In this document: positions 47,726-54,484 of the stretch, one piece after another | How positions within the stretch are numbered: the stretch's first letter is position 1 | Layout: each line of letters begins with the position of its first letter | DNA from: Thainema sp. | GTDB lineage: Bacteria > Cyanobacteriota > Cyanobacteriia > Phormidesmidales > Phormidesmidaceae | DNA: 64,000 bases | Assembly: GCA_052168235.1 (NCBI GenBank) | Contig: JBQLZK010000001.1 | Span: 128,001 to 192,000, forward strand | Direction of reading: 5' to 3' | Notes under the pieces: model-generated | Told to the model about the DNA's origin: nothing | What the model saw: only the letters and a program-made list of their open reading frames with translations | Database searches by the model: none | Made by a program: the position numbers and the translations under genes

Positions 47726-47802
47726 CTCATTGTAACGAGCAATTGGCGATGCGGATGATGATGCAGTGGCGAGGCAATTTATTGCCTCGGTTAAATAGGA
47801 TA

Positions 47803-47877
47803 TCAGCGCTGCACGAGGATGATCAGAATGAACACTGCGACGGCAATGGCAACATAGGGAAACCATTGGATTTGGCC
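47803..47877 (-). pseudogene. Relic copy of the 3' end of the NB-ARC-TPR gene
   Basis: Encodes GQIQWFPYVAIAVAVFILIILVQR*, 16/24 identical to the NLR C-terminus; preceded by in-frame stops. Confidence 0.75.
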
Positions 47878-47942
47878 TTATTGGCAGTTGCGGGCTTATG
47901 CTGTAAACGTGGTTGTTGAGATGAGGTTATATTTCATACCAC

Positions 47943-48212
47943 TCATGGAAAGTAGCGGTAGAATTCGCGGCGGTGTAGCACTCTCATGACTTCTAACGTG
48001 TCGCCGTTAAGTTCAACTCCAACCCGATAATCACCGACGCGAATGCGATATCGGTTGGGATAGCCTATTAATGCTTTTACATTAGGCAGACTTTGGAGGG
48101 ACTGAGCTGCTGGCAATGTTGTAAAGGCAAGCTCAAAGATTCGCTGATAAGCGGATGAGCCTTTGAGTTTTTTCAGATCTTTCAAAAAGAGCTTCCGATA
48201 CTCAATCTTCAA
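47943..48212 (-). CDS. RelE/ParE-family type II toxin
   Basis: TTG start overlaps the antitoxin stop; FLKDLKKL, YRIRVGDYRVG and HRREFYRYFP. Confidence 0.88.
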   Translation of the reverse strand: MKIEYRKLFLKDLKKLKGSSAYQRIFELAFTTLPAAQSLQSLPNVKALIGYPNRYRIRVGDYRVGVELNGDTLEVMRVLHRREFYRYFP

Positions 48213-48442
48213 TCGGCTTCCTCCTCTGCCAAAAACTGAAGCGCATCTTCGCGGCTGAGCAGGGGCGATGTTTTGGCTTCGTCCATCGCTTTGTTTAAGC
48301 AGTAGTCTGCTAAATTTTCGGCGAGATTTTCGAGTGTTTCGTTGCCTTGGGGCATCAGTCGCTGCCAAAGCTCAATGGGAATGACAACGGCCTTGGGATT
48401 GCCGTCAGCGTCGGTGAGATAGTTGATGGCAGGGTTGGTCAT
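48209..48442 (-). CDS. Putative antitoxin
   Basis: 77-aa acidic protein (YLTD..G...AVVIP; LNKAMDEA) upstream of and overlapping the toxin. Confidence 0.78.
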   Translation of the reverse strand: MTNPAINYLTDADGNPKAVVIPIELWQRLMPQGNETLENLAENLADYCLNKAMDEAKTSPLLSREDALQFLAEEEAD

Positions 48443-48467
48443 GGCCTAGCCTCCTTTATGTTTTACT

Positions 48468-51185
48468 CTAACGCTGCAAGATGATAATCAGAACACAGAC
48501 AATAATGGCGATGGCAATATAGGGGAGCCATTGGATCTGACCTTGGCGGGAATTGGACTTTGAGGAATAGGAAGAGTTGGGAAGGGATTTTTCCCACCAA
48601 TCAGGCCTTGAATCCTCTTTTTCCAGAAGAGTAGGCATTTTTCGAGGTTGCATCACAATAGTCTGATTGAGATTGTAAATCACTCGTTCACAATCCTTAA
48701 CTTCGTGGTCAAGTTGCAACTCTTCGTAAATTGCTTTTGCTGCTTCGAGATCTTGCTTCGCTGCCCATAGCTCGTCAATTCTGGCGTAAGCTAAAGCTCG
48801 GTTAAATAGATTGGCTGCTTGGCCCCTGGGTGTATCAATCCGTTTCGCAATTTTTAGAGATTGCCCATAGAATTCAATTGCTTTAACATGTTGACCTAAC
48901 GAACTATAAGCAAGGCCAAGATTACAAAGATTAGCAGCTTGCCCATGAAGATCACCAATCTTCCGATTAATTTCTAAGGCTTGTTTATGTAGGTTCACTG
49001 CTTTGTCATATTGGTGCAACGAATGATACGTACTGCCGAGACTACCAAGAGAAACAGCTTGACCATCAAGGTCACCAATCATCTGCGATATCTCTAAAGT
49101 CTGCTGATGCATTTCAATTGCTTTGTCATGCTGACCCAAGGAATTATAAGCAAAGCCAAGATCTCCAAGATTGGCTACTTTGCCTGTGAGATAACCAATT
49201 TCTTGATTAATTTCTAGGGCCTGCTTGTGCAGTGCAATTGCTTTGGTACATTTACCTAAGGAATAGTATGCAGAGCCAAGGTTGCCTAGATTTGTAGCTT
49301 GACCTTTGCGATGGCCGATCTTCTCCATTATTTCTAGGGCTTGCTCGTGCAGTTTAATTGCTTTATCGTATTGATCTAACAAGCGATAGCTTTGACCAAG
49401 ATTGCAAAGATTATGGGCTTGACCTTCAGCATGGCCAATTTCCTGCACGATTTCTAAAGCTTGCTCATGTAGCTCAACTGATCGAGCATATTCGCTTAAC
49501 TCCTTATAGACTATGCCGAGATTGCCTAGATTGGTAGCTTCCCCCCTACGATCTCCAACCTCTCGATGGATCTTTATAGCTTGCTCAAATAGCTCAATTG
49601 CTTTGTCATACTGGCTCAATGAGACATAAGCCACTCCAAGATTGTCGAAAGCAACAGCTTGGCTGTGAAGATCTCCAAGCTCCTGCTCAATTTCCAGAGC
49701 TTGCTTCTGTAGCTCAATTGATCTGGTGTACTGGCTTAATAAACGGTAGGCAAGGCCAAGGTTACCAAGAGCAGCGGCAAATTTCCGCCTTTTCTCCAGT
49801 GTTTTCGGTGGATAATTTTTCCAGGCTGTCGTCAGCCGTTCATAGGTATCTGCCCAAATGCGATAGTAACCTAGCAAGTCAAACCATTTAGTACATTCTG
49901 AGATCGCATCATAGGCAGCTTCATATTTGTCTAGCTCACAGTGATGGTGAAATACAGCTAAATAGTCATCTAAAAACTTCTCAATATCGTTTTGCTCTGG
50001 TTTTAGAGGTAAATAGTCAGTAAAGAACTCAACCGCCTTCTGATGTGCTCCAACCTCCAATTGTCGCTCTTGCAATGTCTTCTCGACAAACTGCCGCATC
50101 AGCGGATGCAATGTCCAGCGATCTTGTCGCTTCAGCAAAAAGCCCTGCATTTCTAATAGTTCCAGATCAGCCTCTGCCACCTGCGGCTGCATTGCCTGTG
50201 CCCGTTCCACATCAAACGGATTCTGATAAACCGACACCTCCAGCAGTGCCGTCTGCAACGTCTCCGATAACTGCTGCAACAAAAGCTGAAAAATCTCCTC
50301 AACCTTCGCTTCCGGATCACCCAAATTGTTCTCAAACAGCCTCTCAAAAAAGCTTAAATCCGTTTCTTTGAGTTGTCCCGCTGCCGTCTGATTCAGCCAA
50401 CTCGCCGCCAAATTCAACAACAACGGATGCCCATCTGCCAACGTCGAAAGCTGCTCTAAATTGACTTCTTCCGATGCAGAAATTTCCTGCTTCTGCAAAA
50501 ACGCCGCCCCTTCCTGCGGTGTAAACCCCGGCAAAACGTAACGAACCGAATCTTCAGCAACAAACCGATTCCGCGTCGTCACCAGAATCATGCTTTTCCG
50601 TCCCCGCTGTTGCCACTGCTCCAAAAATGCCTCAAACAATGGCCGATCTGCCGACTGCTCAATCTCCTCAAGCTGATCCATCACCAGCAGACAGCGGCGT
50701 TCACTCAGCCGATGAATTGTCTGAGTAATTAGCTCCTCGTCTGGAACTGACTCATCCGGAACTAAAAAGCCAATTTCTTGATGTACCCAGCGACCAAACG
50801 TACTGAAAGATGGCTGTTTTTGAAAATTGATCCACAGCGCATAGTCAAACCGCGCTTGAGTAACTTCATACGCCCAACACGCCAACAGCGACTTACCAAA
50901 ACCACCTGCTGCCACCACTTCAGTCAGCAGAACACGATCCGACTGTATCCGCTCCATCAAATTAGCTTGTGGCTGTGTCCGGTCAACCCATCTGTCCGGC
51001 TCACGCCTGGGTAGAATGGGATCAATTTCTGTAACCAGCACCGTGCGCTGAGACTCAATGCGATCGCCAAAATTTGCGGTTCCATGAAACTCACCAAATC
51101 CGTAGTTTCGGGAATTACCATGTCCTTCGATATCAATGTTGACCTTGTTAGGATCAAATTTCGGCGTTTTGTCTTGCCCAGTCAT
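48468..51185 (-). CDS. NLR-like protein: N-terminal amyloid-type motif, NB-ARC-like NTPase, TPR array, C-terminal TM helix
   Basis: AAGGFGKS Walker A, LLVMD Walker B, ILVTTR, GHPLLL, LHPLMR; about 9-10 40-aa TPR repeats; hydrophobic tail. Confidence 0.88.
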   Translation of the reverse strand: MTGQDKTPKFDPNKVNIDIEGHGNSRNYGFGEFHGTANFGDRIESQRTVLVTEIDPILPRREPDRWVDRTQPQANLMERIQSDRVLLTEVVAAGGFGKSLLACWAYEVTQARFDYALWINFQKQPSFSTFGRWVHQEIGFLVPDESVPDEELITQTIHRLSERRCLLVMDQLEEIEQSADRPLFEAFLEQWQQRGRKSMILVTTRNRFVAEDSVRYVLPGFTPQEGAAFLQKQEISASEEVNLEQLSTLADGHPLLLNLAASWLNQTAAGQLKETDLSFFERLFENNLGDPEAKVEEIFQLLLQQLSETLQTALLEVSVYQNPFDVERAQAMQPQVAEADLELLEMQGFLLKRQDRWTLHPLMRQFVEKTLQERQLEVGAHQKAVEFFTDYLPLKPEQNDIEKFLDDYLAVFHHHCELDKYEAAYDAISECTKWFDLLGYYRIWADTYERLTTAWKNYPPKTLEKRRKFAAALGNLGLAYRLLSQYTRSIELQKQALEIEQELGDLHSQAVAFDNLGVAYVSLSQYDKAIELFEQAIKIHREVGDRRGEATNLGNLGIVYKELSEYARSVELHEQALEIVQEIGHAEGQAHNLCNLGQSYRLLDQYDKAIKLHEQALEIMEKIGHRKGQATNLGNLGSAYYSLGKCTKAIALHKQALEINQEIGYLTGKVANLGDLGFAYNSLGQHDKAIEMHQQTLEISQMIGDLDGQAVSLGSLGSTYHSLHQYDKAVNLHKQALEINRKIGDLHGQAANLCNLGLAYSSLGQHVKAIEFYGQSLKIAKRIDTPRGQAANLFNRALAYARIDELWAAKQDLEAAKAIYEELQLDHEVKDCERVIYNLNQTIVMQPRKMPTLLEKEDSRPDWWEKSLPNSSYSSKSNSRQGQIQWLPYIAIAIIVCVLIIILQR

Positions 51186-51631
51186 GACTTTGAATCACCA
51201 AAGTTTGCTGTCCCGTGAAATTCACCAAATCCATAATTTCGGGAATTATCGTGTCCCTCAATGTCAACGTTGATTTCCTTATGGACTTGGTTCTGCTGAC
51301 CAATGTTAATAATCTGTTGCGCCATCTGCTGCACATCCTCAGCAAACTGCTGATTCTCTGGATCTCTTAATTCATAAGCTAGACAAATCTCCAGTTCTTC
51401 TAGTGCAGCCTCAGACTTTTCTTGCTCTACTCGGGTGATGGCCTTTTCCATCCGCTTATTTCCAGTAAAGTGCTGCTTGATCCGTTTCCACAACGCCTCA
51501 ATCTGGCTACCCGCCGTCTTCAACATGGCTGGGGTCGTTATTTCTGCCGCTTTGCCTGCTGCTGCCTCAACAAACTTACTTGCCGCTATGGCAGCGATCC
51601 CCGCTGCCGTTAACGTGACTGGATCAGTCAT
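51182..51631 (-). CDS. Bell-like helical effector with C-terminal amyloid-type motif
   Basis: MTDPVTLTAAGIAAIA hydrophobic N-helix, LW..I...F.G and FA..VQQ.A pattern; C-terminal motif repeated in the next gene; ATGA overlap. Confidence 0.75.
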   Translation of the reverse strand: MTDPVTLTAAGIAAIAASKFVEAAAGKAAEITTPAMLKTAGSQIEALWKRIKQHFTGNKRMEKAITRVEQEKSEAALEELEICLAYELRDPENQQFAEDVQQMAQQIINIGQQNQVHKEINVDIEGHDNSRNYGFGEFHGTANFGDSKS

Positions 51632-51813
51632 AGTTTTATATCTAGGTAATGGCTACATTTGACTCATCCCAATTCTGCACAGAATTTCTCTCAGTGTCGA
51701 GAATCGAGGATTAAGCTAGTTGTTATATGTATAGACAAAGCCATTGATACGTTACGGCTAGCGCCTGACACATCCTACGAAGCTACAAAACTTAAAATCT
51801 GGGGAAACAGCAG

Positions 51814-52053
51814 ATGGCTGAAAACATCGTGAAAGTAGACATCTCATTTCAAGCCTTACTCACAGCCGTTCTATCTCTGGAACGCGCTGAGAAGCAGAAG
51901 CTTTGGGAATTCCTGGAAACAGATTTATTTCCAGACGAGGAGGATTCACCCGAAGATCTGGCTGAAATTGAAGCTGCTCGCGCCGACTATACAGCAGGTG
52001 ACTACATCACGTTTGATCAATACGCAGCAGAGCGAGCTAGCCGTTACGAATGA
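51814..52053 (+). CDS. Putative antitoxin
   Basis: 79-aa acidic protein (EIEAARADYTAGDYITFD) with ATGA overlap to a RelE-like gene. Confidence 0.7.
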   Translation: MAENIVKVDISFQALLTAVLSLERAEKQKLWEFLETDLFPDEEDSPEDLAEIEAARADYTAGDYITFDQYAAERASRYE

Positions 52054-52289
52054 CGTACACAATCATTACGCCTAAAGTTGTTCGAAAACAGCTAGATGAC
52101 TTGCCCGATGACGTTTATGAACGTATTGCTCCTAAGATCCAGCAGCTTGCAGAACATCCTCGCCCAGACGGGGTTACAAAGCTGAAAGGAACCGATCGCG
52201 AATATTGGGTTCGTTGTGAAATTGATGACAAGGAAAAAGTGATCTTGCTCTTATAGTGCAAGCACTAAAGAGATATCTACCGGAAGTAG
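52050..52289 (+). pseudogene. Decayed RelE/ParE toxin
   Basis: PRPDGVTKLKG present, but the RIRxGDY segment is missing and the tail reads LLL*CKH*RDIYRK*. Confidence 0.75.
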
Positions 52290-52345
52290 ACAAATTTCAA
52301 AAAGGACAGCCAAGATAGCTGTCCTATAGCATTCAATCTTTAGCC

Positions 52346-52834
52346 CTAAATATCTTTACTTTGCACAAAATAGGAGCCAATACTGAAGCTGGTATCGCTT
52401 TCCTCAAGCTGCTTTAAGACTGAACGGGTAATTAGCTTCTCTTTTTCGACCAGCACTTGACCTGTGATTGGGTGCAGCAAATCTTGCTCTGCCCGCCGTC
52501 CAATCAGCGCCTCAATATCCTTCAGCGAATTAATATACATACCGGGCGGTAGCTCCACCACCACGCCTTCGCCCTGCACCCGTGCCTGACAGGCCAAGCG
52601 CGAATTGGGCTTGCAGGTGGTAATCACTTCTAACGTACGCTGTTCCCGGCGGTTAATTGGGCTGAGCGAGCCCATGCCCTCTTTCACATAGATATGGCAG
52701 GTGGCGCACATACCCCGCCCACCACACTCTTTCAAAACGTCCAGTTCTTCATCCAGCAGCACAGAGAGCAGGTTGCCGTCAGTTGCGATCGCGGTTTCCT
52801 GAGCAATTGGTTCTAGTCGAACAATTTTAACCAT
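52346..52834 (-). CDS. 2Fe-2S ferredoxin-domain protein
   Basis: CGGRGMCATC...RLACQ motif with a C-terminal extension. Confidence 0.88.
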   Translation of the reverse strand: MVKIVRLEPIAQETAIATDGNLLSVLLDEELDVLKECGGRGMCATCHIYVKEGMGSLSPINRREQRTLEVITTCKPNSRLACQARVQGEGVVVELPPGMYINSLKDIEALIGRRAEQDLLHPITGQVLVEKEKLITRSVLKQLEESDTSFSIGSYFVQSKDI

Positions 52835-53082
52835 TAAATTCGCCTACTCAATATCAAAACAAATTGAAACCCAAAAACCGAAACGAGAAGAGCCAATTAG
52901 CTAGAAAGGAACCAGCTTAAAACTGTATCAATTAGACAATTTAGACAGTTTTGTTGCCAACTCAATAAAAATCAACATTCAACTCACCATTTAACCAACC
53001 ATTTCGCAAAACCAAACCTTTATCTAAAAATGCTGATGTTGATTCACAACAAGTGATTTACAACCAGATGACAAGGTAAATC

Positions 53083-53961
53083 TTATCGCTCCGGGAAAAC
53101 CGTCAAATCAGACAGCAAAATGTACCGTTGACGTTCATCCAACGCCTCTTGCTCCATCAAAACGGGGAAATCGCGGATTACTCTTGCGCAACGGGTTACG
53201 AACGCCGTTACCCACATTTTGATCCACTTCTGATGCTCATTTTCAATCTCTTCTTGCAGCGAGGTTTGAGAACTCGGTGCAAGACTAATATTCCCCGTCC
53301 GTTCAATCTGAAAAACGTCCAGCCAATCTAAATCAGGCCGACTGGTTTTCCAGTAGTTTGATACCACAGCTTTGCCCAGATATTGGCTAGCATATTGGCT
53401 CAAGCTATTCAACGCAGATAGCACCTCACCTAAATTCGGTGGCTTCATCACCGAAGCCTGATTCGATTTCGGTGTCGGCGGAGTTCTCTGGGCAGGGGCG
53501 ACCGTCGCATTGGACTGGGTTGTAGAGCCCGATGTGCTTAAGGCAGCTTGGGATTGAGACTCTCCCCAGTAGCTTTGTCCCGATAACGATATACTTCCCG
53601 CTAACAACCGAAATGTTGCAACCGCTTTGGTAATATCGCCCAGAAGTTCATCCTTCAGCAGACTAATTCCCTGCATATAGGACGTGATATCCAGATTTTC
53701 GTTCGTCAGAACCAGTAAAATTGCACCCTGTTCCAGTTTATAAATGTACACACTGTAATTGGAAAACAGGAACTCAAACGACTCAAATCCGGATGGCGTT
53801 GTGTCGATAACCTGTTGAATTCCTTGGGCTAGCGCCTCCCGCTGCTGGAAGTTGAGTGTCTGATCCAATCCAAAAAAATAGGGACGCGATCGCCCATCCA
53901 TTAGGGCAATGCCCGCAATTCCTGGTAAATTCAGAAAATCCTGAACGACCTCCCGTTTCAT
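53083..53961 (-). CDS. Conserved cyanobacterial hypothetical protein
   Basis: FLNLPGIAGIALMDGRSRPYF N-terminus; YLG..VV.NYW..SRP C-terminal domain. Confidence 0.7.
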   Translation of the reverse strand: MKREVVQDFLNLPGIAGIALMDGRSRPYFFGLDQTLNFQQREALAQGIQQVIDTTPSGFESFEFLFSNYSVYIYKLEQGAILLVLTNENLDITSYMQGISLLKDELLGDITKAVATFRLLAGSISLSGQSYWGESQSQAALSTSGSTTQSNATVAPAQRTPPTPKSNQASVMKPPNLGEVLSALNSLSQYASQYLGKAVVSNYWKTSRPDLDWLDVFQIERTGNISLAPSSQTSLQEEIENEHQKWIKMWVTAFVTRCARVIRDFPVLMEQEALDERQRYILLSDLTVFPER

Positions 53962-54484
53962 AGGATGCCTAAAATCGTTGTCCGTCTAAATCAGCAATAG
54001 TCAATCTGGAATCATCAATCTGGAGAGTCAATCGAGCTGAGTTGAGCCAACTCTTCATACTGGATTGAACATACAGATTGAAAACAGTCAAGCAAGCGAT
54101 CATCAAGTTTTGCGCCTTAACTTGGGCTTTGGCTTTAACAGGGTCACACAAGTTTATCCTGGTCTAGAGCGCAACTTCCACTTAGCGAAAATTAAAGTCA
54201 GCACATCAGGTGCGATCGCATGCTAGTTCTTAAATTAATGCACAGTTGAATCGGGTAAGAAATATTTCAAATCATGTCAAAGGGTAATCTAAGAATTAAA
54301 GTGCATTTCATTACAGTACGTTGGATAGTGCATTAGACGTTGAGTATGTAAATCTGCATGCAACAACACTACACAATGACCGGAATATCTATATCTCTCA
54401 CACTACAGAGATATGATATGTGGCGTATTTCGCCTCAGATGTTTCAAACTTGTTCGTTTGTTCCTCCGTATAAGGCTAGCAGCT

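What the first reader, a model, noticed from the sequence alone, without database searches (positions are those of the whole stretch)
48468..51631. Bell-like effector plus NB-ARC-TPR receptor sharing a motif: candidate amyloid-signalling immune system
Seen: the 149-aa protein ends INVDIEGHDNSRNYGFGEFHGTANFGDSKS, and the next gene (ATGA overlap) begins ...VNIDIEGHGNSRNYGFGEFHGTANFGD before an NB-ARC-like NTPase and a TPR array. The small protein starts with a hydrophobic helix and has a Q/N-rich linker. Known: fungal NWD2/HET-S and bacterial Bell/BASS loci use this layout; the ligand-activated NLR oligomer templates the amyloid fold onto the effector's matching motif and releases a membrane-damaging N-terminal helix. 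Inference: a prion-like signalling and programmed-cell-death defence system in a cyanobacterium, possibly with a motif family not yet catalogued.
Basis: partly seen in the sequence, partly recalled or inferred. Interest (0 to 1): 0.92.

Follow-up and report, generated by a model that had tools for sequence, protein, structure and literature searches.

The report
Bell/NLR amyloid-tag gene pair, known kind
Two overlapping cyanobacterial genes, a small helical "executioner" protein and a membrane-anchored NB-ARC/TPR receptor, carry the same 28-residue tag, which makes them a fresh example of an amyloid-signalling cell-death module first catalogued in 2020.

Summary
A 149-aa ORF (51182-51631, minus strand) and a 905-aa ORF (48468-51185, minus strand) overlap by ATGA. 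They share a 28-residue motif, 24/28 identical, E 2e-16.

The large protein has the motif, then NB-ARC, a TPR array and a C-terminal membrane anchor. The small protein has no Pfam, NCBIfam or PADLOC hit. It is homologous to proteins whose tails are in the published Bell/BASS data set.

The tag is kept by selection. Half of the identical residues use different codons. In 22 homologous pairs, cognate tags match better than in all 10,000 permutations.

The motif is a diverged form of a BASS1-like type, not a new family. Its exact variant was found nowhere else.

The pair lies in a 4.6-kb islet flanked by toxin-antitoxin modules, and a same-genus genome lacks the islet.

Verdict: a new member of a known kind. 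The scan has met this kind before on other DNA.

By-product: in a sister class, including a third locus in this genome, the receptor has no tag of its own. It follows the Bell gene in frame after one UGA plus a covarying hairpin, which suggests programmed read-through.

The parts
51182..51631 (-). Bell-like effector gene, 149 aa: a helical N-terminal domain (about residues 1-117) and a C-terminal tag
   Evidence: ORF. No Pfam, NCBIfam or PADLOC family. 27 further proteins besides the window's own, P0001; P0028, named OmpA-like by one source, matches only at E 7.2e-5. One search gives 76 representative clusters at E<=1e-3. AF2 model all-helical, pLDDT 73.7, tail under 50. 41% identity, E 7e-18, to the L016 small ORF, whose tail is entry Ccya03_s030 of the published Bell-side set.
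51563..51619 (-). N-terminal hydrophobic helix (residues 5-23), preceded by M-T-D-P
   Evidence: Sequence. KD mean 1.40. M1 and P4 are invariant and position 3 is D or E in 26 of 26 aligned homologues. This matches the acidic residue at position 2-3 and the 'MEPIS' region described for Bell/HeLL (sections read).
51194..51277 (-). Effector-side tag (residues 119-146, EINVDIEGHDNSRNYGFGEFHGTANFGD)
   Evidence: 24/28 identical to the receptor copy. pLDDT under 50. No K, P or L; G5 N4.
48468..51185 (-). NLR-like receptor gene, 905 aa; its start overlaps the effector stop (ATGA)
51063..51146 (-). Receptor-side tag (residues 14-41)
   Evidence: In the whole own genome the tag occurs only at these two places, plus a weak match (E 0.93) in the paralogous receptor.
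50388..50942 (-). NB-ARC NTPase module (residues 82-266)
   Evidence: Pfam PF00931, E 8.4e-10, above the gathering score. P-loop AAGGFGKS read from the sequence. Walker B LLVMDQ at 166, VTTR at 202, GHPL at 252.
48696..49853 (-). TPR sensor array (about residues 445-830)
   Evidence: TPR_12, TPR_1, TPR_10 and others. It is the most diverged part between the paralogues (22-60% identity per 50 columns).
48477..48536 (-). C-terminal tail anchor (residues 884-903), after an S/Q-rich linker and a DWWEKSLP motif
   Evidence: The same tail and upstream motif occur in the partner NLRs of C17, L002, L004, L007 and L017.
47943..48442 (-). RelB-like antitoxin (48209-48442) and ParE-like toxin (within 47943-48368), 25 bp downstream of the receptor on the same strand
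   Evidence: Pfam RelB-like E 1.8e-16 and ParE_toxin E 2.9e-9.
51814..52256 (+). Second small overlapping gene pair (79 aa + 68 aa), possibly a toxin-antitoxin module, divergent from the effector gene
   Evidence: Only a sub-threshold ParE_toxin hit (E 0.03) for the 68-aa protein. A copy at 85% identity lies elsewhere in the same-genus genome.
47750..52340 (.). Accessory islet of about 4.6 kb (TA + receptor + effector + TA-like pair), between polA and a 2Fe-2S ferredoxin-like gene
   Evidence: In same-genus genome G001, contig C55, the polA match ends 16 bp from the match to window 52353-54024. The junction is aligned. GC is 0.42-0.51 in the islet against 0.50-0.56 in polA.

Best explanation
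This is a two-gene Bell/BASS-NLR module, a regulated cell-death switch of the kind catalogued in filamentous bacteria. The receptor is tethered to a membrane by its C-terminal anchor and is held inactive. Binding of an unknown cue to its TPR array would allow nucleotide exchange and oligomerisation of the NB-ARC module. Oligomerisation brings the N-terminal 28-residue tags together into a cross-beta nucleus. That nucleus templates the identical tag at the C-terminus of the small protein. Folding of the tag frees the small protein's N-terminal hydrophobic helix from its helical bundle, and the helix inserts into the membrane and kills the cell. The most likely role is abortive defence against phage. 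What is shown here: gene layout, domain content, the shared tag, selection on the tag, co-variation of tags in homologous pairs, homology to published Bell-side proteins, and accessory-islet context. What is inferred from the family: amyloid formation, templating, membrane damage, the trigger and the defence role.
For: Layout and tag. Receptor modules: NB-ARC above the Pfam cut-off, a TPR array, and Walker B/TTR/GxPL motifs.

Effector: short, all-helical, with a disordered tag. Its N-terminus is M-x-[DE]-P plus a hydrophobic helix in 26 of 26 homologues. The effector is homologous to small ORFs whose tails are in the published Bell-side sets. L016 is 41% identical (E 7e-18) and its tail contains entry Ccya03_s030 exactly. 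The loci with NYGRDQINIE tails match cluster C20.

Selection on the tag: 12 of 24 identical residues use different codons.

Co-variation: at least 20 of 28 related loci have a downstream NTPase with a matching tag. In 22 pairs the cognate score sum is 1664 against a permuted mean of 824 (sd 95), with 0 of 10,000 permutations reaching it. Within the one motif type (11 pairs) the sum is 927 against 598 (sd 60), again 0 of 10,000.

Paralogous pair in the same genome (C17): the Bell domain is 90/115 identical (dN/dS 0.09) and the NOD has dN/dS 0.17. The tags are only 11/34 identical between the pairs, yet they match within each pair (alignment scores 145 and 132 against 54 and 43 crosswise).

Accessory context: TA-flanked, absent from the syntenic site of a congener. 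The family is patchy, present in 20 of 41 relatives.

Published basis: BASS1 and BASS3 form prions and fibrils (abstract). A Bell-related protein with BASS11 mediates abortive antiphage defence in E. coli (abstract and sections 4 and 8).
Against: No experiment and no structure supports amyloid formation by this particular tag. The tag is unusually acidic and aromatic for the class (3 E, 3 D, 3 F, 1 Y; only 1 V, 2 I, no Q).

The effector has no hit to HeLo, HeLL or any other Pfam family. No significant fold match was found: Foldseek's best E was 2.3 and VIA's best Z was 5.0.

In the co-variation test the cognate partner was the single best match in only 9 of 22 pairs (6 of 11 within the motif type), because many tags are close to a shared consensus.

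A defence role has been shown only for a distant E. coli relative with a different receptor. PADLOC has no model for either protein beyond a generic TPR model. The trigger is unknown. No promoter or terminator signal above chance defines the operon.
Confidence: 0.72

Rival explanations
1. The shared tag is a non-amyloid docking peptide. The receptor recruits the small protein stoichiometrically through a short linear motif, for example by strand pairing in a defined hetero-oligomer, without prion-like templating or amplification.
For: The tag is acidic and aromatic, poor in V/I/Q, and predicted disordered. Co-variation would be expected for any specific peptide-peptide contact.
Against: By descent the tag belongs to a type that resembles BASS1-cluster members, and BASS1 forms ordered amyloid fibrils and prions (abstract). 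A self-matching (homotypic) tag is the signature of templating, not of a lock-and-key contact. The tag has no K, P or L, as reported for BASS motifs.
Confidence: 0.12
2. The module is a real amyloid-controlled death switch, but it serves self/non-self recognition or developmental cell death within filaments or aggregates, not phage defence.
For: The authors of the BASS catalogue stress the link with multicellular life style (abstract and section 6). Fungal counterparts act in allorecognition. No phage gene lies in the islet.
Against: The pair sits in a 4.6-kb accessory islet between TA modules, and a congener lacks it. That context is typical of defence genes. A Bell-related/BASS11 system is an abortive-infection system.
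Confidence: 0.1
3. The pair is a decaying or silent relic with no present function.
For: No RNA data could be found. Some related loci carry shortened receptors (L005 659 aa, L006 529 aa, L008 295 aa).
Against: Both ORFs are intact and the NTPase motifs are present. Against the paralogue, dN/dS is 0.09 for the Bell domain, 0.17 for the NOD and 0.21 for the TPR array. The tag is kept identical through synonymous change.
Confidence: 0.04

Closest known systems
Bell-domain protein / NLR gene pairs with BASS motifs (Dyrka et al. 2020, bioRxiv 10.1101/2020.01.06.895854; abstract and sections 6, 7 and 9 read)
   Same: A short helical protein with an acidic residue at position 3 and a hydrophobic first helix. 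A tag of about 25 residues at its C-terminus and at the N-terminus of a collinear, overlapping NB-ARC/TPR gene. A cyanobacterial host; Leptolyngbya is named among the genera with hits.
   Different: The tag is a private variant, not seen in any other protein I could find nor in the held part of the published training sets. The receptor carries a conserved C-terminal membrane anchor, which the preprint text does not mention (0 occurrences of 'transmembrane').
BASS1 motif family (cluster C01 of the training data in PMC8086366, supplement 1; the C01 = BASS1 mapping is my inference from matching set sizes)
   Same: The related tag type NIDARDEARVNAVGE..TVNFGD and the paralogue's NTTARDQSRVNNFGEF resemble C01 entries such as ..NIDARDSATVKAI.. 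and ..TNTARDNGRVFAALGG... The window's EGHDNSRNY resembles ..AEAHDNSRVY...
   Different: The second half of the window's tag (GFGEFHGTANFGD) has no counterpart among the entries I saw. The words GFGEF, NFGEF and SRNYG have 0 occurrences in the held part. I could not run the authors' profile HMMs.
Bab/Agp, BASS11 antiphage abortive-infection system of E. coli (Ibarlosa et al. 2024, bioRxiv 10.1101/2024.11.07.622273; abstract and sections 4 and 8 read)
   Same: A small helical effector with a conserved N-terminal helix and a C-terminal amyloid tag, shared with the N-terminus of the adjacent sensor gene. It lies in a mobile defence context.
   Different: The Bab domain is shorter (about 80 aa). 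Its sensor is a TPR-GreA/B-PIN protein without an NTPase. The tag family is different. No detectable sequence or fold match to any solved structure was found here.
Fungal HET-S/NWD2 and HeLL/PNT1-type amyloid signalosomes (named from the introduction of Dyrka et al. 2020 and from my own knowledge)
   Same: The logic is the same: NLR oligomer, then amyloid nucleus, then templating of the effector tag, then release of an N-terminal membrane-inserting helix.
   Different: No sequence homology was detected (no HeLo/HeLL Pfam hit). The effector carries a single tag copy, not two pseudo-repeats. The host is bacterial.
All-in-one antiphage STAND NTPases (Avs, bNACHT)
   Same: A STAND NTPase with a C-terminal repeat sensor. 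Some share the N-terminal 'MEPIS' region with Bell domains (section read).
   Different: Here effector and receptor are separate proteins coupled by a tag. There is no PADLOC Avs or bNACHT hit.

Membership tests
Bell domain (Dyrka et al. 2020) | Short protein (about 120-140 aa) with an all-alpha domain of about 100 aa | tested here: met
   149 aa. AF2 gives helices 9-17, 22-28, 34-39, 41-54, 59-71, 74-89 and 91-125, with pLDDT 73.7.
Bell domain (Dyrka et al. 2020) | N-terminal hydrophobic helix with an acidic residue at position 2 or 3 | tested here: met
   MTDPVTLTAAGIAAIAASKFV. D or E at position 3 in 26 of 26 homologues, with M1 and P4 invariant.
Bell domain (Dyrka et al. 2020) | Sequence homology to the authors' Bell set (HMMER from ONI86675.1) | tested here: met
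   The link is indirect. The effector matches the L016 small ORF at E 7e-18, and that ORF's C-terminus contains training entry Ccya03_s030 exactly. Loci L013, L021, L024, L025 and L028 carry C20-type tails. The seed protein itself was not available to me.
Bell domain (Dyrka et al. 2020) | Encoded next to, and collinear with, an NLR-like gene at a very short distance | tested here: met
   4-nt ATGA overlap.
Bell domain (Dyrka et al. 2020) | Membrane-targeting, cell-killing activity | not testable with these tools
   Needs expression and viability or membrane assays.
BASS amyloid signalling motif | A motif of about 25 residues shared by the effector C-terminus and the NLR N-terminus | tested here: met
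   24/28 identical, E 2e-16. Cognate tags match better than permuted ones in 22 pairs.
BASS amyloid signalling motif | Composition enriched in G, N, Q, V, I and depleted in K, P, L | tested here: inconclusive
   0 K, P or L, with G5 and N4. But only 1 V, 2 I and 0 Q, against 6 acidic and 4 aromatic residues.
BASS amyloid signalling motif | Match to one of the BASS1-10 profile HMMs | tested here: inconclusive
   The profiles are not available. By eye, and by descent through the paralogue, the tag relates to C01 entries. The preprint's Table S2 could not be opened.
BASS amyloid signalling motif | Forms amyloid fibrils or prions, and the NLR-side copy seeds the effector-side copy | not testable with these tools
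   Needs ThT, EM and cross-seeding assays.
NLR-like STAND NTPase (NB-ARC + TPR) | NB-ARC domain above Pfam's gathering score | tested here: met
   PF00931, 38.8 bits against 23.5.
NLR-like STAND NTPase (NB-ARC + TPR) | P-loop, Walker B, TTR and GxP motifs | tested here: met
   AAGGFGKS ([AG]x4GK[ST], read). LLVMDQ at 166, VTTR at 202, GHPL at 252.
NLR-like STAND NTPase (NB-ARC + TPR) | C-terminal repeat sensor | tested here: met
   TPR_12 E 6e-64 in five stretches, and other TPR models.
HeLo / HeLo-like / SesA (fungal) and MLKL executioner domains | Pfam match, or a significant fold match | tested here: inconclusive
   No Pfam hit at E<=0.1. MLKL chains appear only at Foldseek E 4.5-7.1. VIA's best Z is 5.0, to unrelated proteins.
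RHIM / BASS3 | Central (I/V)-Q-(I/V)-G-type core | tested here: not met
   No such core in EINVDIEGHDNSRNYGFGEFHGTANFGD. C03 entries show ..GVQVGDHNTQ...

The most novel reading that the evidence does not exclude
The Bell/NLR family to which this pair belongs may have two interchangeable ways of giving receptor and effector the same amyloid tag. One is a second, co-evolving copy, as in the window and its paralogue, whose tags have drifted apart and may form two insulated channels in one cell. The other is programmed read-through of a leaky stop. At the genome's third locus (contig C19) and in at least 26 loci of other cyanobacteria, the tag-less receptor follows the Bell gene in frame after a single UGA, an 8-nt spacer and a covarying 5-bp hairpin. 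A minority of ribosomes would then make a Bell-tag-NLR fusion (the receptor), while most make the free effector. This part lies outside the window.
Probability: 0.5. Interest if true: 0.8.

Novelty: new member of a known kind. Interest (0 to 1): 0.4.

Why it matters
On its own the pair adds one more example to a class of several hundred catalogued gene pairs. No NLR-type (Bell/NLR) cyanobacterial member of that class came up as functionally tested in the papers I read.

It offers a convenient natural experiment. Two paralogous pairs in one genome have near-identical effector domains (78%) and NTPase modules, but tags that are only about a third identical. Cross-seeding tests between them could show how amyloid templating specificity is encoded and insulated.

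The conserved membrane anchor of the receptor suggests that the amyloid nucleus forms at the membrane the effector attacks.

If the read-through class seen in passing is real, it would be a new use of translational recoding in bacterial immunity. It would also be a simple answer to how receptor and effector keep identical tags.

Tried and rejected
- Family scans of the small protein found nothing usable. Pfam gave only a sub-threshold PFEMP hit; NCBIfam and PADLOC gave nothing.
- 60 of the 76 representative homologues were scanned against Pfam. None hit a Bell, HeLo or HetE-N family.
- The ESM Atlas pointed to PF20701 HetE-N in 12% of one neighbouring cluster. That family has no match in the own genome at E<=1. 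Lead dropped.
- PDB sequence search with the family profile: best E 0.22.
- Foldseek against the PDB: no hit at E<=0.001. VIA wide search: best Z 5.0 to unrelated helical proteins. These show neither a new fold nor a known one.
- Complex prediction on two copies each of effector 105-149 and receptor 1-50 gave no answer (score 0.03).
- The promoter and terminator scan gave counts at chance level.
- A word-based search with receptor residues 1-60 returned only the protein itself (1 candidate). It also missed the known paralogue, so it says little.
- For the by-product: MFE z-scores of the post-stop region were not significant (z -0.56; mean z 0.19 over 23 loci, none below -2). Only the explicit pair count shows the small hairpin.
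- Rfam has no match in 4 such loci.
- Selenocysteine was considered as a reading of the UGA and rejected for this genome. No selA match was found, and the best selB-model match (188.7 bits) is under the cut-off of 242; the genome is 99.99% complete.
Full report
**1. The observation**

One search lists a 149-aa ORF at 51182-51631 and a 905-aa ORF at 48468-51185, both on the minus strand. One search shows the small gene's TGA overlapping the large gene's ATG (ATGA). BLASTP of the two proteins aligns residues 119-146 of the small one with residues 14-41 of the large one: 24/28 identical, 27/28 positive, E 2e-16.

The two coding stretches are 67/84 identical at DNA level. Of the 24 identical residues, 12 use different codons. 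The likeness is therefore maintained at protein level and is not a recent copy of DNA. In the whole 7.5-Mb genome the tag occurs only at these two places, plus a weak echo (E 0.93) in a paralogous receptor.

**2. The receptor**

Pfam gives NB-ARC at residues 82-266 (38.8 bits, cut-off 23.5) and a long TPR array (TPR_12 E 6e-64). The sequence holds a P-loop (AAGGFGKS), Walker B (LLVMDQ, 166), VTTR (202) and GHPL (252).

NCBIfam gives only partial TPR-type matches below their cut-offs. PADLOC gives a generic TPR model.

The protein ends with an S/Q-rich linker and a 20-residue hydrophobic tail (maximum KD19 2.67 at residue 884). The tail, with a DWW.KSLP motif before it, recurs in the partner receptors of C17, L002, L004, L007 and L017. 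The word 'transmembrane' does not occur in the Dyrka preprint text, and a five-term literature search (listing only) showed no paper on it.

**3. The effector**

No Pfam, NCBIfam or PADLOC family matches it.

A word-seeded search of 5.8 billion proteins found 28 proteins at E<=1e-3 among 74 candidates, the window's own included. The exhaustive HMMER search of representatives found 76 clusters at E<=1e-3, of which 14 were at E<=1e-10.

In the alignment of 26 homologues the first 115 residues or so are conserved. M1 and P4 are invariant and position 3 is D or E in all 26. The last 30 residues or so vary.

AlphaFold2 with this alignment gives an all-helical model (pLDDT 73.7, pTM 0.64) with the tag below pLDDT 50. 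Fold and sequence searches against solved structures found nothing significant.

Membership in the Bell family rests on sequence. The protein matches the small ORF of locus L016 (Scytonema sp. PCC 10023) with 41% identity, E 7e-18. The C-terminus of that ORF contains, letter for letter, entry Ccya03_s030 of the Bell-side BASS training set distributed with PMC8086366. Other homologous loci carry NYGRDQINIE tails, like cluster C20 of that set.

The N-terminal M-x-[DE]-P plus hydrophobic helix fits two published descriptions. One is the acidic residue at position 2 or 3 (section 6 of Dyrka et al.). The other is the 'MEPIS' region (sections 4 and 8 of Ibarlosa et al.).

**4. Related gene pairs and co-variation**

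A scan of one genome per species returned 28 loci, nearly all from cyanobacteria. In at least 20 of them a downstream NTPase gene starts with a stretch that matches the tail of the small protein. L011's partner was missed there and was found.

Three tag types appear:
- NIDARDEARVNAVGE.NATTVNFGD
- YNNYGRDQINIENIQGN
- NRDNAKGFQVQANRIDRIGDDY

For 22 pairs (20 loci, the window and its paralogue) the summed cognate alignment score is 1664, against 824 (sd 95) for permuted partners, with 0 of 10,000 permutations as high. Within the first type alone (11 pairs) it is 927 against 598 (sd 60), again 0 of 10,000. The cognate partner is the single best match in only 9 of 22 pairs (6 of 11), because many tags lie close to the type consensus.

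The window pair is an outlier in the other direction: 145 for the cognate against at most 54 for any other partner.

**5. A paralogous pair in the same genome**

The genome holds three Bell-like genes. The pair on contig C17 has a 150-aa effector and an 868-aa receptor, with the same ATGA-type overlap, NB-ARC, TPR and tail anchor. It is a close paralogue.

| Region compared with the window pair | Result |
|---|---|
| Bell domain | 90/115 identical, dN/dS 0.09 |
| NOD | 70-94% identical per 50 columns, dN/dS 0.17 |
| TPR array | 22-60% identical per 50 columns, dN/dS 0.21 |
| Effector tails (tags) | 11/34 identical; tag dN 0.42-0.62 against 0.09-0.12 next door |

Each pair keeps its own tag matched. 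The window pair is 24/28 identical (score 145). The C17 pair scores 132, against 54 and 43 for the two cross-combinations.

This shows by descent that the window's odd tag (HD-NSR-NYGF-GEF-HGTANFGD) derives from the first type, since the paralogue has RD-QSR-VNNF-GEF-NANTVDFGD. It also raises the possibility, untested, that the two pairs are insulated from each other.

**6. Is the tag catalogued?**

The training data of PMC8086366 (supplement 1, held only in part) list ten clusters. Their highest entry numbers equal the ten family sizes given in Table 1 of that paper. I therefore read C01 as BASS1, C20 as BASS8 and Ccya03 as BASS9. This mapping is my inference.

C01 holds entries such as ..QNIDARDSATVKAIANVENANTIN..TNTARDNGRVFAALGG.. 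and ..AEAHDNSRVYMAGRD... These resemble the first tag type, the paralogue's tag and the window's first half. The words GFGEF, NFGEF and SRNYG do not occur in the held part.

So the family is most likely BASS1-like, while the exact variant appears private. There is no RHIM-type core.

**7. Context**

The receptor gene is followed after 25 bp, on the same strand, by a RelB-like antitoxin (E 1.8e-16) and a ParE-like toxin (E 2.9e-9). A second small overlapping pair lies upstream on the other strand.

In a same-genus genome (G001) the polA match and the match to window 52353-54024 lie 16 bp apart on one contig. About 47750-52340 of the window (4.6 kb) is absent there. Copies of both small modules lie elsewhere in that genome (92% and 85% identity).

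The Bell-like family is patchy. It is present in 20 of 41 relatives including the own genome, and in 12 of 24 genomes of the same family. The congener has only a distant member (E 1e-9). With the C19 protein as query, 95 of 401 sampled genomes of the class had a match at E<=1e-8.

**8. Mechanism and rivals**

The best-supported reading is the published one for this class: ligand-driven oligomerisation of the NLR, a cross-beta nucleus of its N-terminal tags, templating of the effector's tag, then release and membrane insertion of helix 1. The added point here is that this receptor is itself membrane-tethered.

The templating and killing steps are inferred from BASS1/BASS3 experiments (abstract) and from Bab/Agp (abstract and sections). 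The rivals are a non-amyloid docking motif, a developmental or allorecognition role, and a silent relic. They are weighed in their own sections.

**9. Novelty**

The kind is known and reviewed (passages of PMC13506858). This scan has filed several such pairs from other genomes as known. The window pair is a new member.

**10. By-product outside the window**

At the genome's third locus (contig C19, locus L034) the Bell gene ends with TGA. An NB-ARC/TPR open frame follows in the same frame from the very next codon, and this receptor has no tag of its own.

I tallied all 98 non-redundant Bell-like ORFs in the loci I held. These came, plus the window; own-genome duplicates and synteny loci were dropped. 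Of the 98, 76 have an adjacent NTPase frame.

| Class | Loci | Reading frame of the receptor (0/1/2) | Stop codons |
|---|---|---|---|
| Receptor has a second tag copy | 52 | 12/12/28 | TGA 21, TAG 19, TAA 12 |
| Receptor has no second copy | 24 | 23/0/1, open from the first codon after the stop | TGA 21, TAG 2, TAA 1 |

Further features of the 24 loci without a second copy:
- 20 of the 23 in-frame stops are followed by C, mostly TGA-CTG-GAG.
- The peptide after the stop is conserved (LE[PS]S..R.K..PP.N.P...FVGR[ED]), with the P-loop about 55 codons on.
- In 13 of the 24 the first ATG, GTG or TTG lies at codon 35 or later, behind the conserved FVGR motif.

Eight nucleotides after the stop, a 5-bp stem with an 11-nt loop pairs in 23, 21, 23, 23 and 23 of 23 sequences at its five positions. 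Double-sided changes occur at two positions (8 and 13 sequences). The covariation score is 0.41, against 0.18 (sd 0.03) in 500 shuffles (0 as high) and at most 0.08 when the partners are slid. A sixth pair I proposed fails, pairing in only 2 of 23. One covarying position links a synonymous third base with a second base that switches Arg and Pro, which points to an RNA constraint and not a protein one.

A covariance model built from these 23 sequences was run over 100 sources. It found the element in the 17 training loci among those sources (matches by construction) and in five further loci: L089, L095, L101, L102 and L097. It found it in none of the two-copy loci at E<0.01. In L097 the Bell frame is shifted upstream of the element.

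The genome lacks selA and has no selB match above the cut-off. Rfam has no match.

I found no paper on it: the listing shows none, and the Dyrka preprint has 0 occurrences of readthrough, stop codon or in-frame.

The natural reading is programmed UGA read-through that makes a Bell-tag-NLR fusion beside the free effector, so that one tag copy serves both. An internal non-canonical start, or a conserved regulatory stop, is not excluded.

Noticed in passing
L034 (G000 contig C19) 2842-5781, minus strand; also L020, L042, L044, L064, L079, L084, L085, L088-L091, L095, L096, L098-L102, L105, L109, L112-L114, L119, L121, L122: This is a sister class of Bell/NLR loci in which the receptor has no tag of its own. 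The receptor follows the Bell gene in frame after a single stop (TGA in 21 of 24, usually TGA-C). An 8-nt spacer and a 5-bp hairpin with compensatory changes follow. 23 of 24 tag-less receptors are in frame, against 12 of 52 tag-bearing ones. This suggests programmed read-through that makes a Bell-tag-NLR fusion.
   Followed up: partly
window 47750-52340: The effector/receptor pair and two flanking small toxin-antitoxin-type modules form a 4.6-kb islet between polA and a 2Fe-2S ferredoxin-like gene. A same-genus genome has the two flanks 16 bp apart and carries copies of the small modules elsewhere.
   Followed up: yes
window 48477-48536 (receptor residues 884-903); L033, L002, L004, L007, L017: A conserved C-terminal tail anchor, preceded by DWW.KSLP and a low-complexity linker, occurs in the NB-ARC/TPR partners of this Bell subfamily. 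This implies a membrane-tethered NLR. It is not mentioned in the catalogue preprint's text.
   Followed up: partly
L013, L021, L024, L025, L028 (partners of NYGRDQINIE-type effectors): The partner NTPases of this tag type are shorter (613-677 aa). They have a strongly hydrophobic internal segment (KD19 2.35-2.92 near residues 460-520) and not a C-terminal anchor, so they are a different receptor architecture.
   Followed up: no
proteins P0085, P0036, P0070, P0073, P0047: Some homologues of the effector's N-terminal domain are fused to TIR (P0085), TPR (P0036, P0070) or HEAT repeats (P0073), or lie in a 1603-aa protein (P0047). The domain is thus also used as a module in longer proteins.
   Followed up: no
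L005, L006, L008: The partner receptors are shortened (659, 529 and 295 aa, against about 770-980) and lack the tail anchor. This may be decay or assembly error.
   Followed up: no
L097 1981-2035, minus strand: The stop-plus-hairpin element and the in-frame receptor are present (37.2 bits), but the Bell reading frame is shifted just upstream of the element. This is a frameshift or a sequencing error.
   Followed up: no
window 47748-47866: The listed polA ORF (1039 aa) probably starts later than its first ATG. Homology with the congener ends at about 47747, and the first 47 residues or so look non-coding.
   Followed up: no
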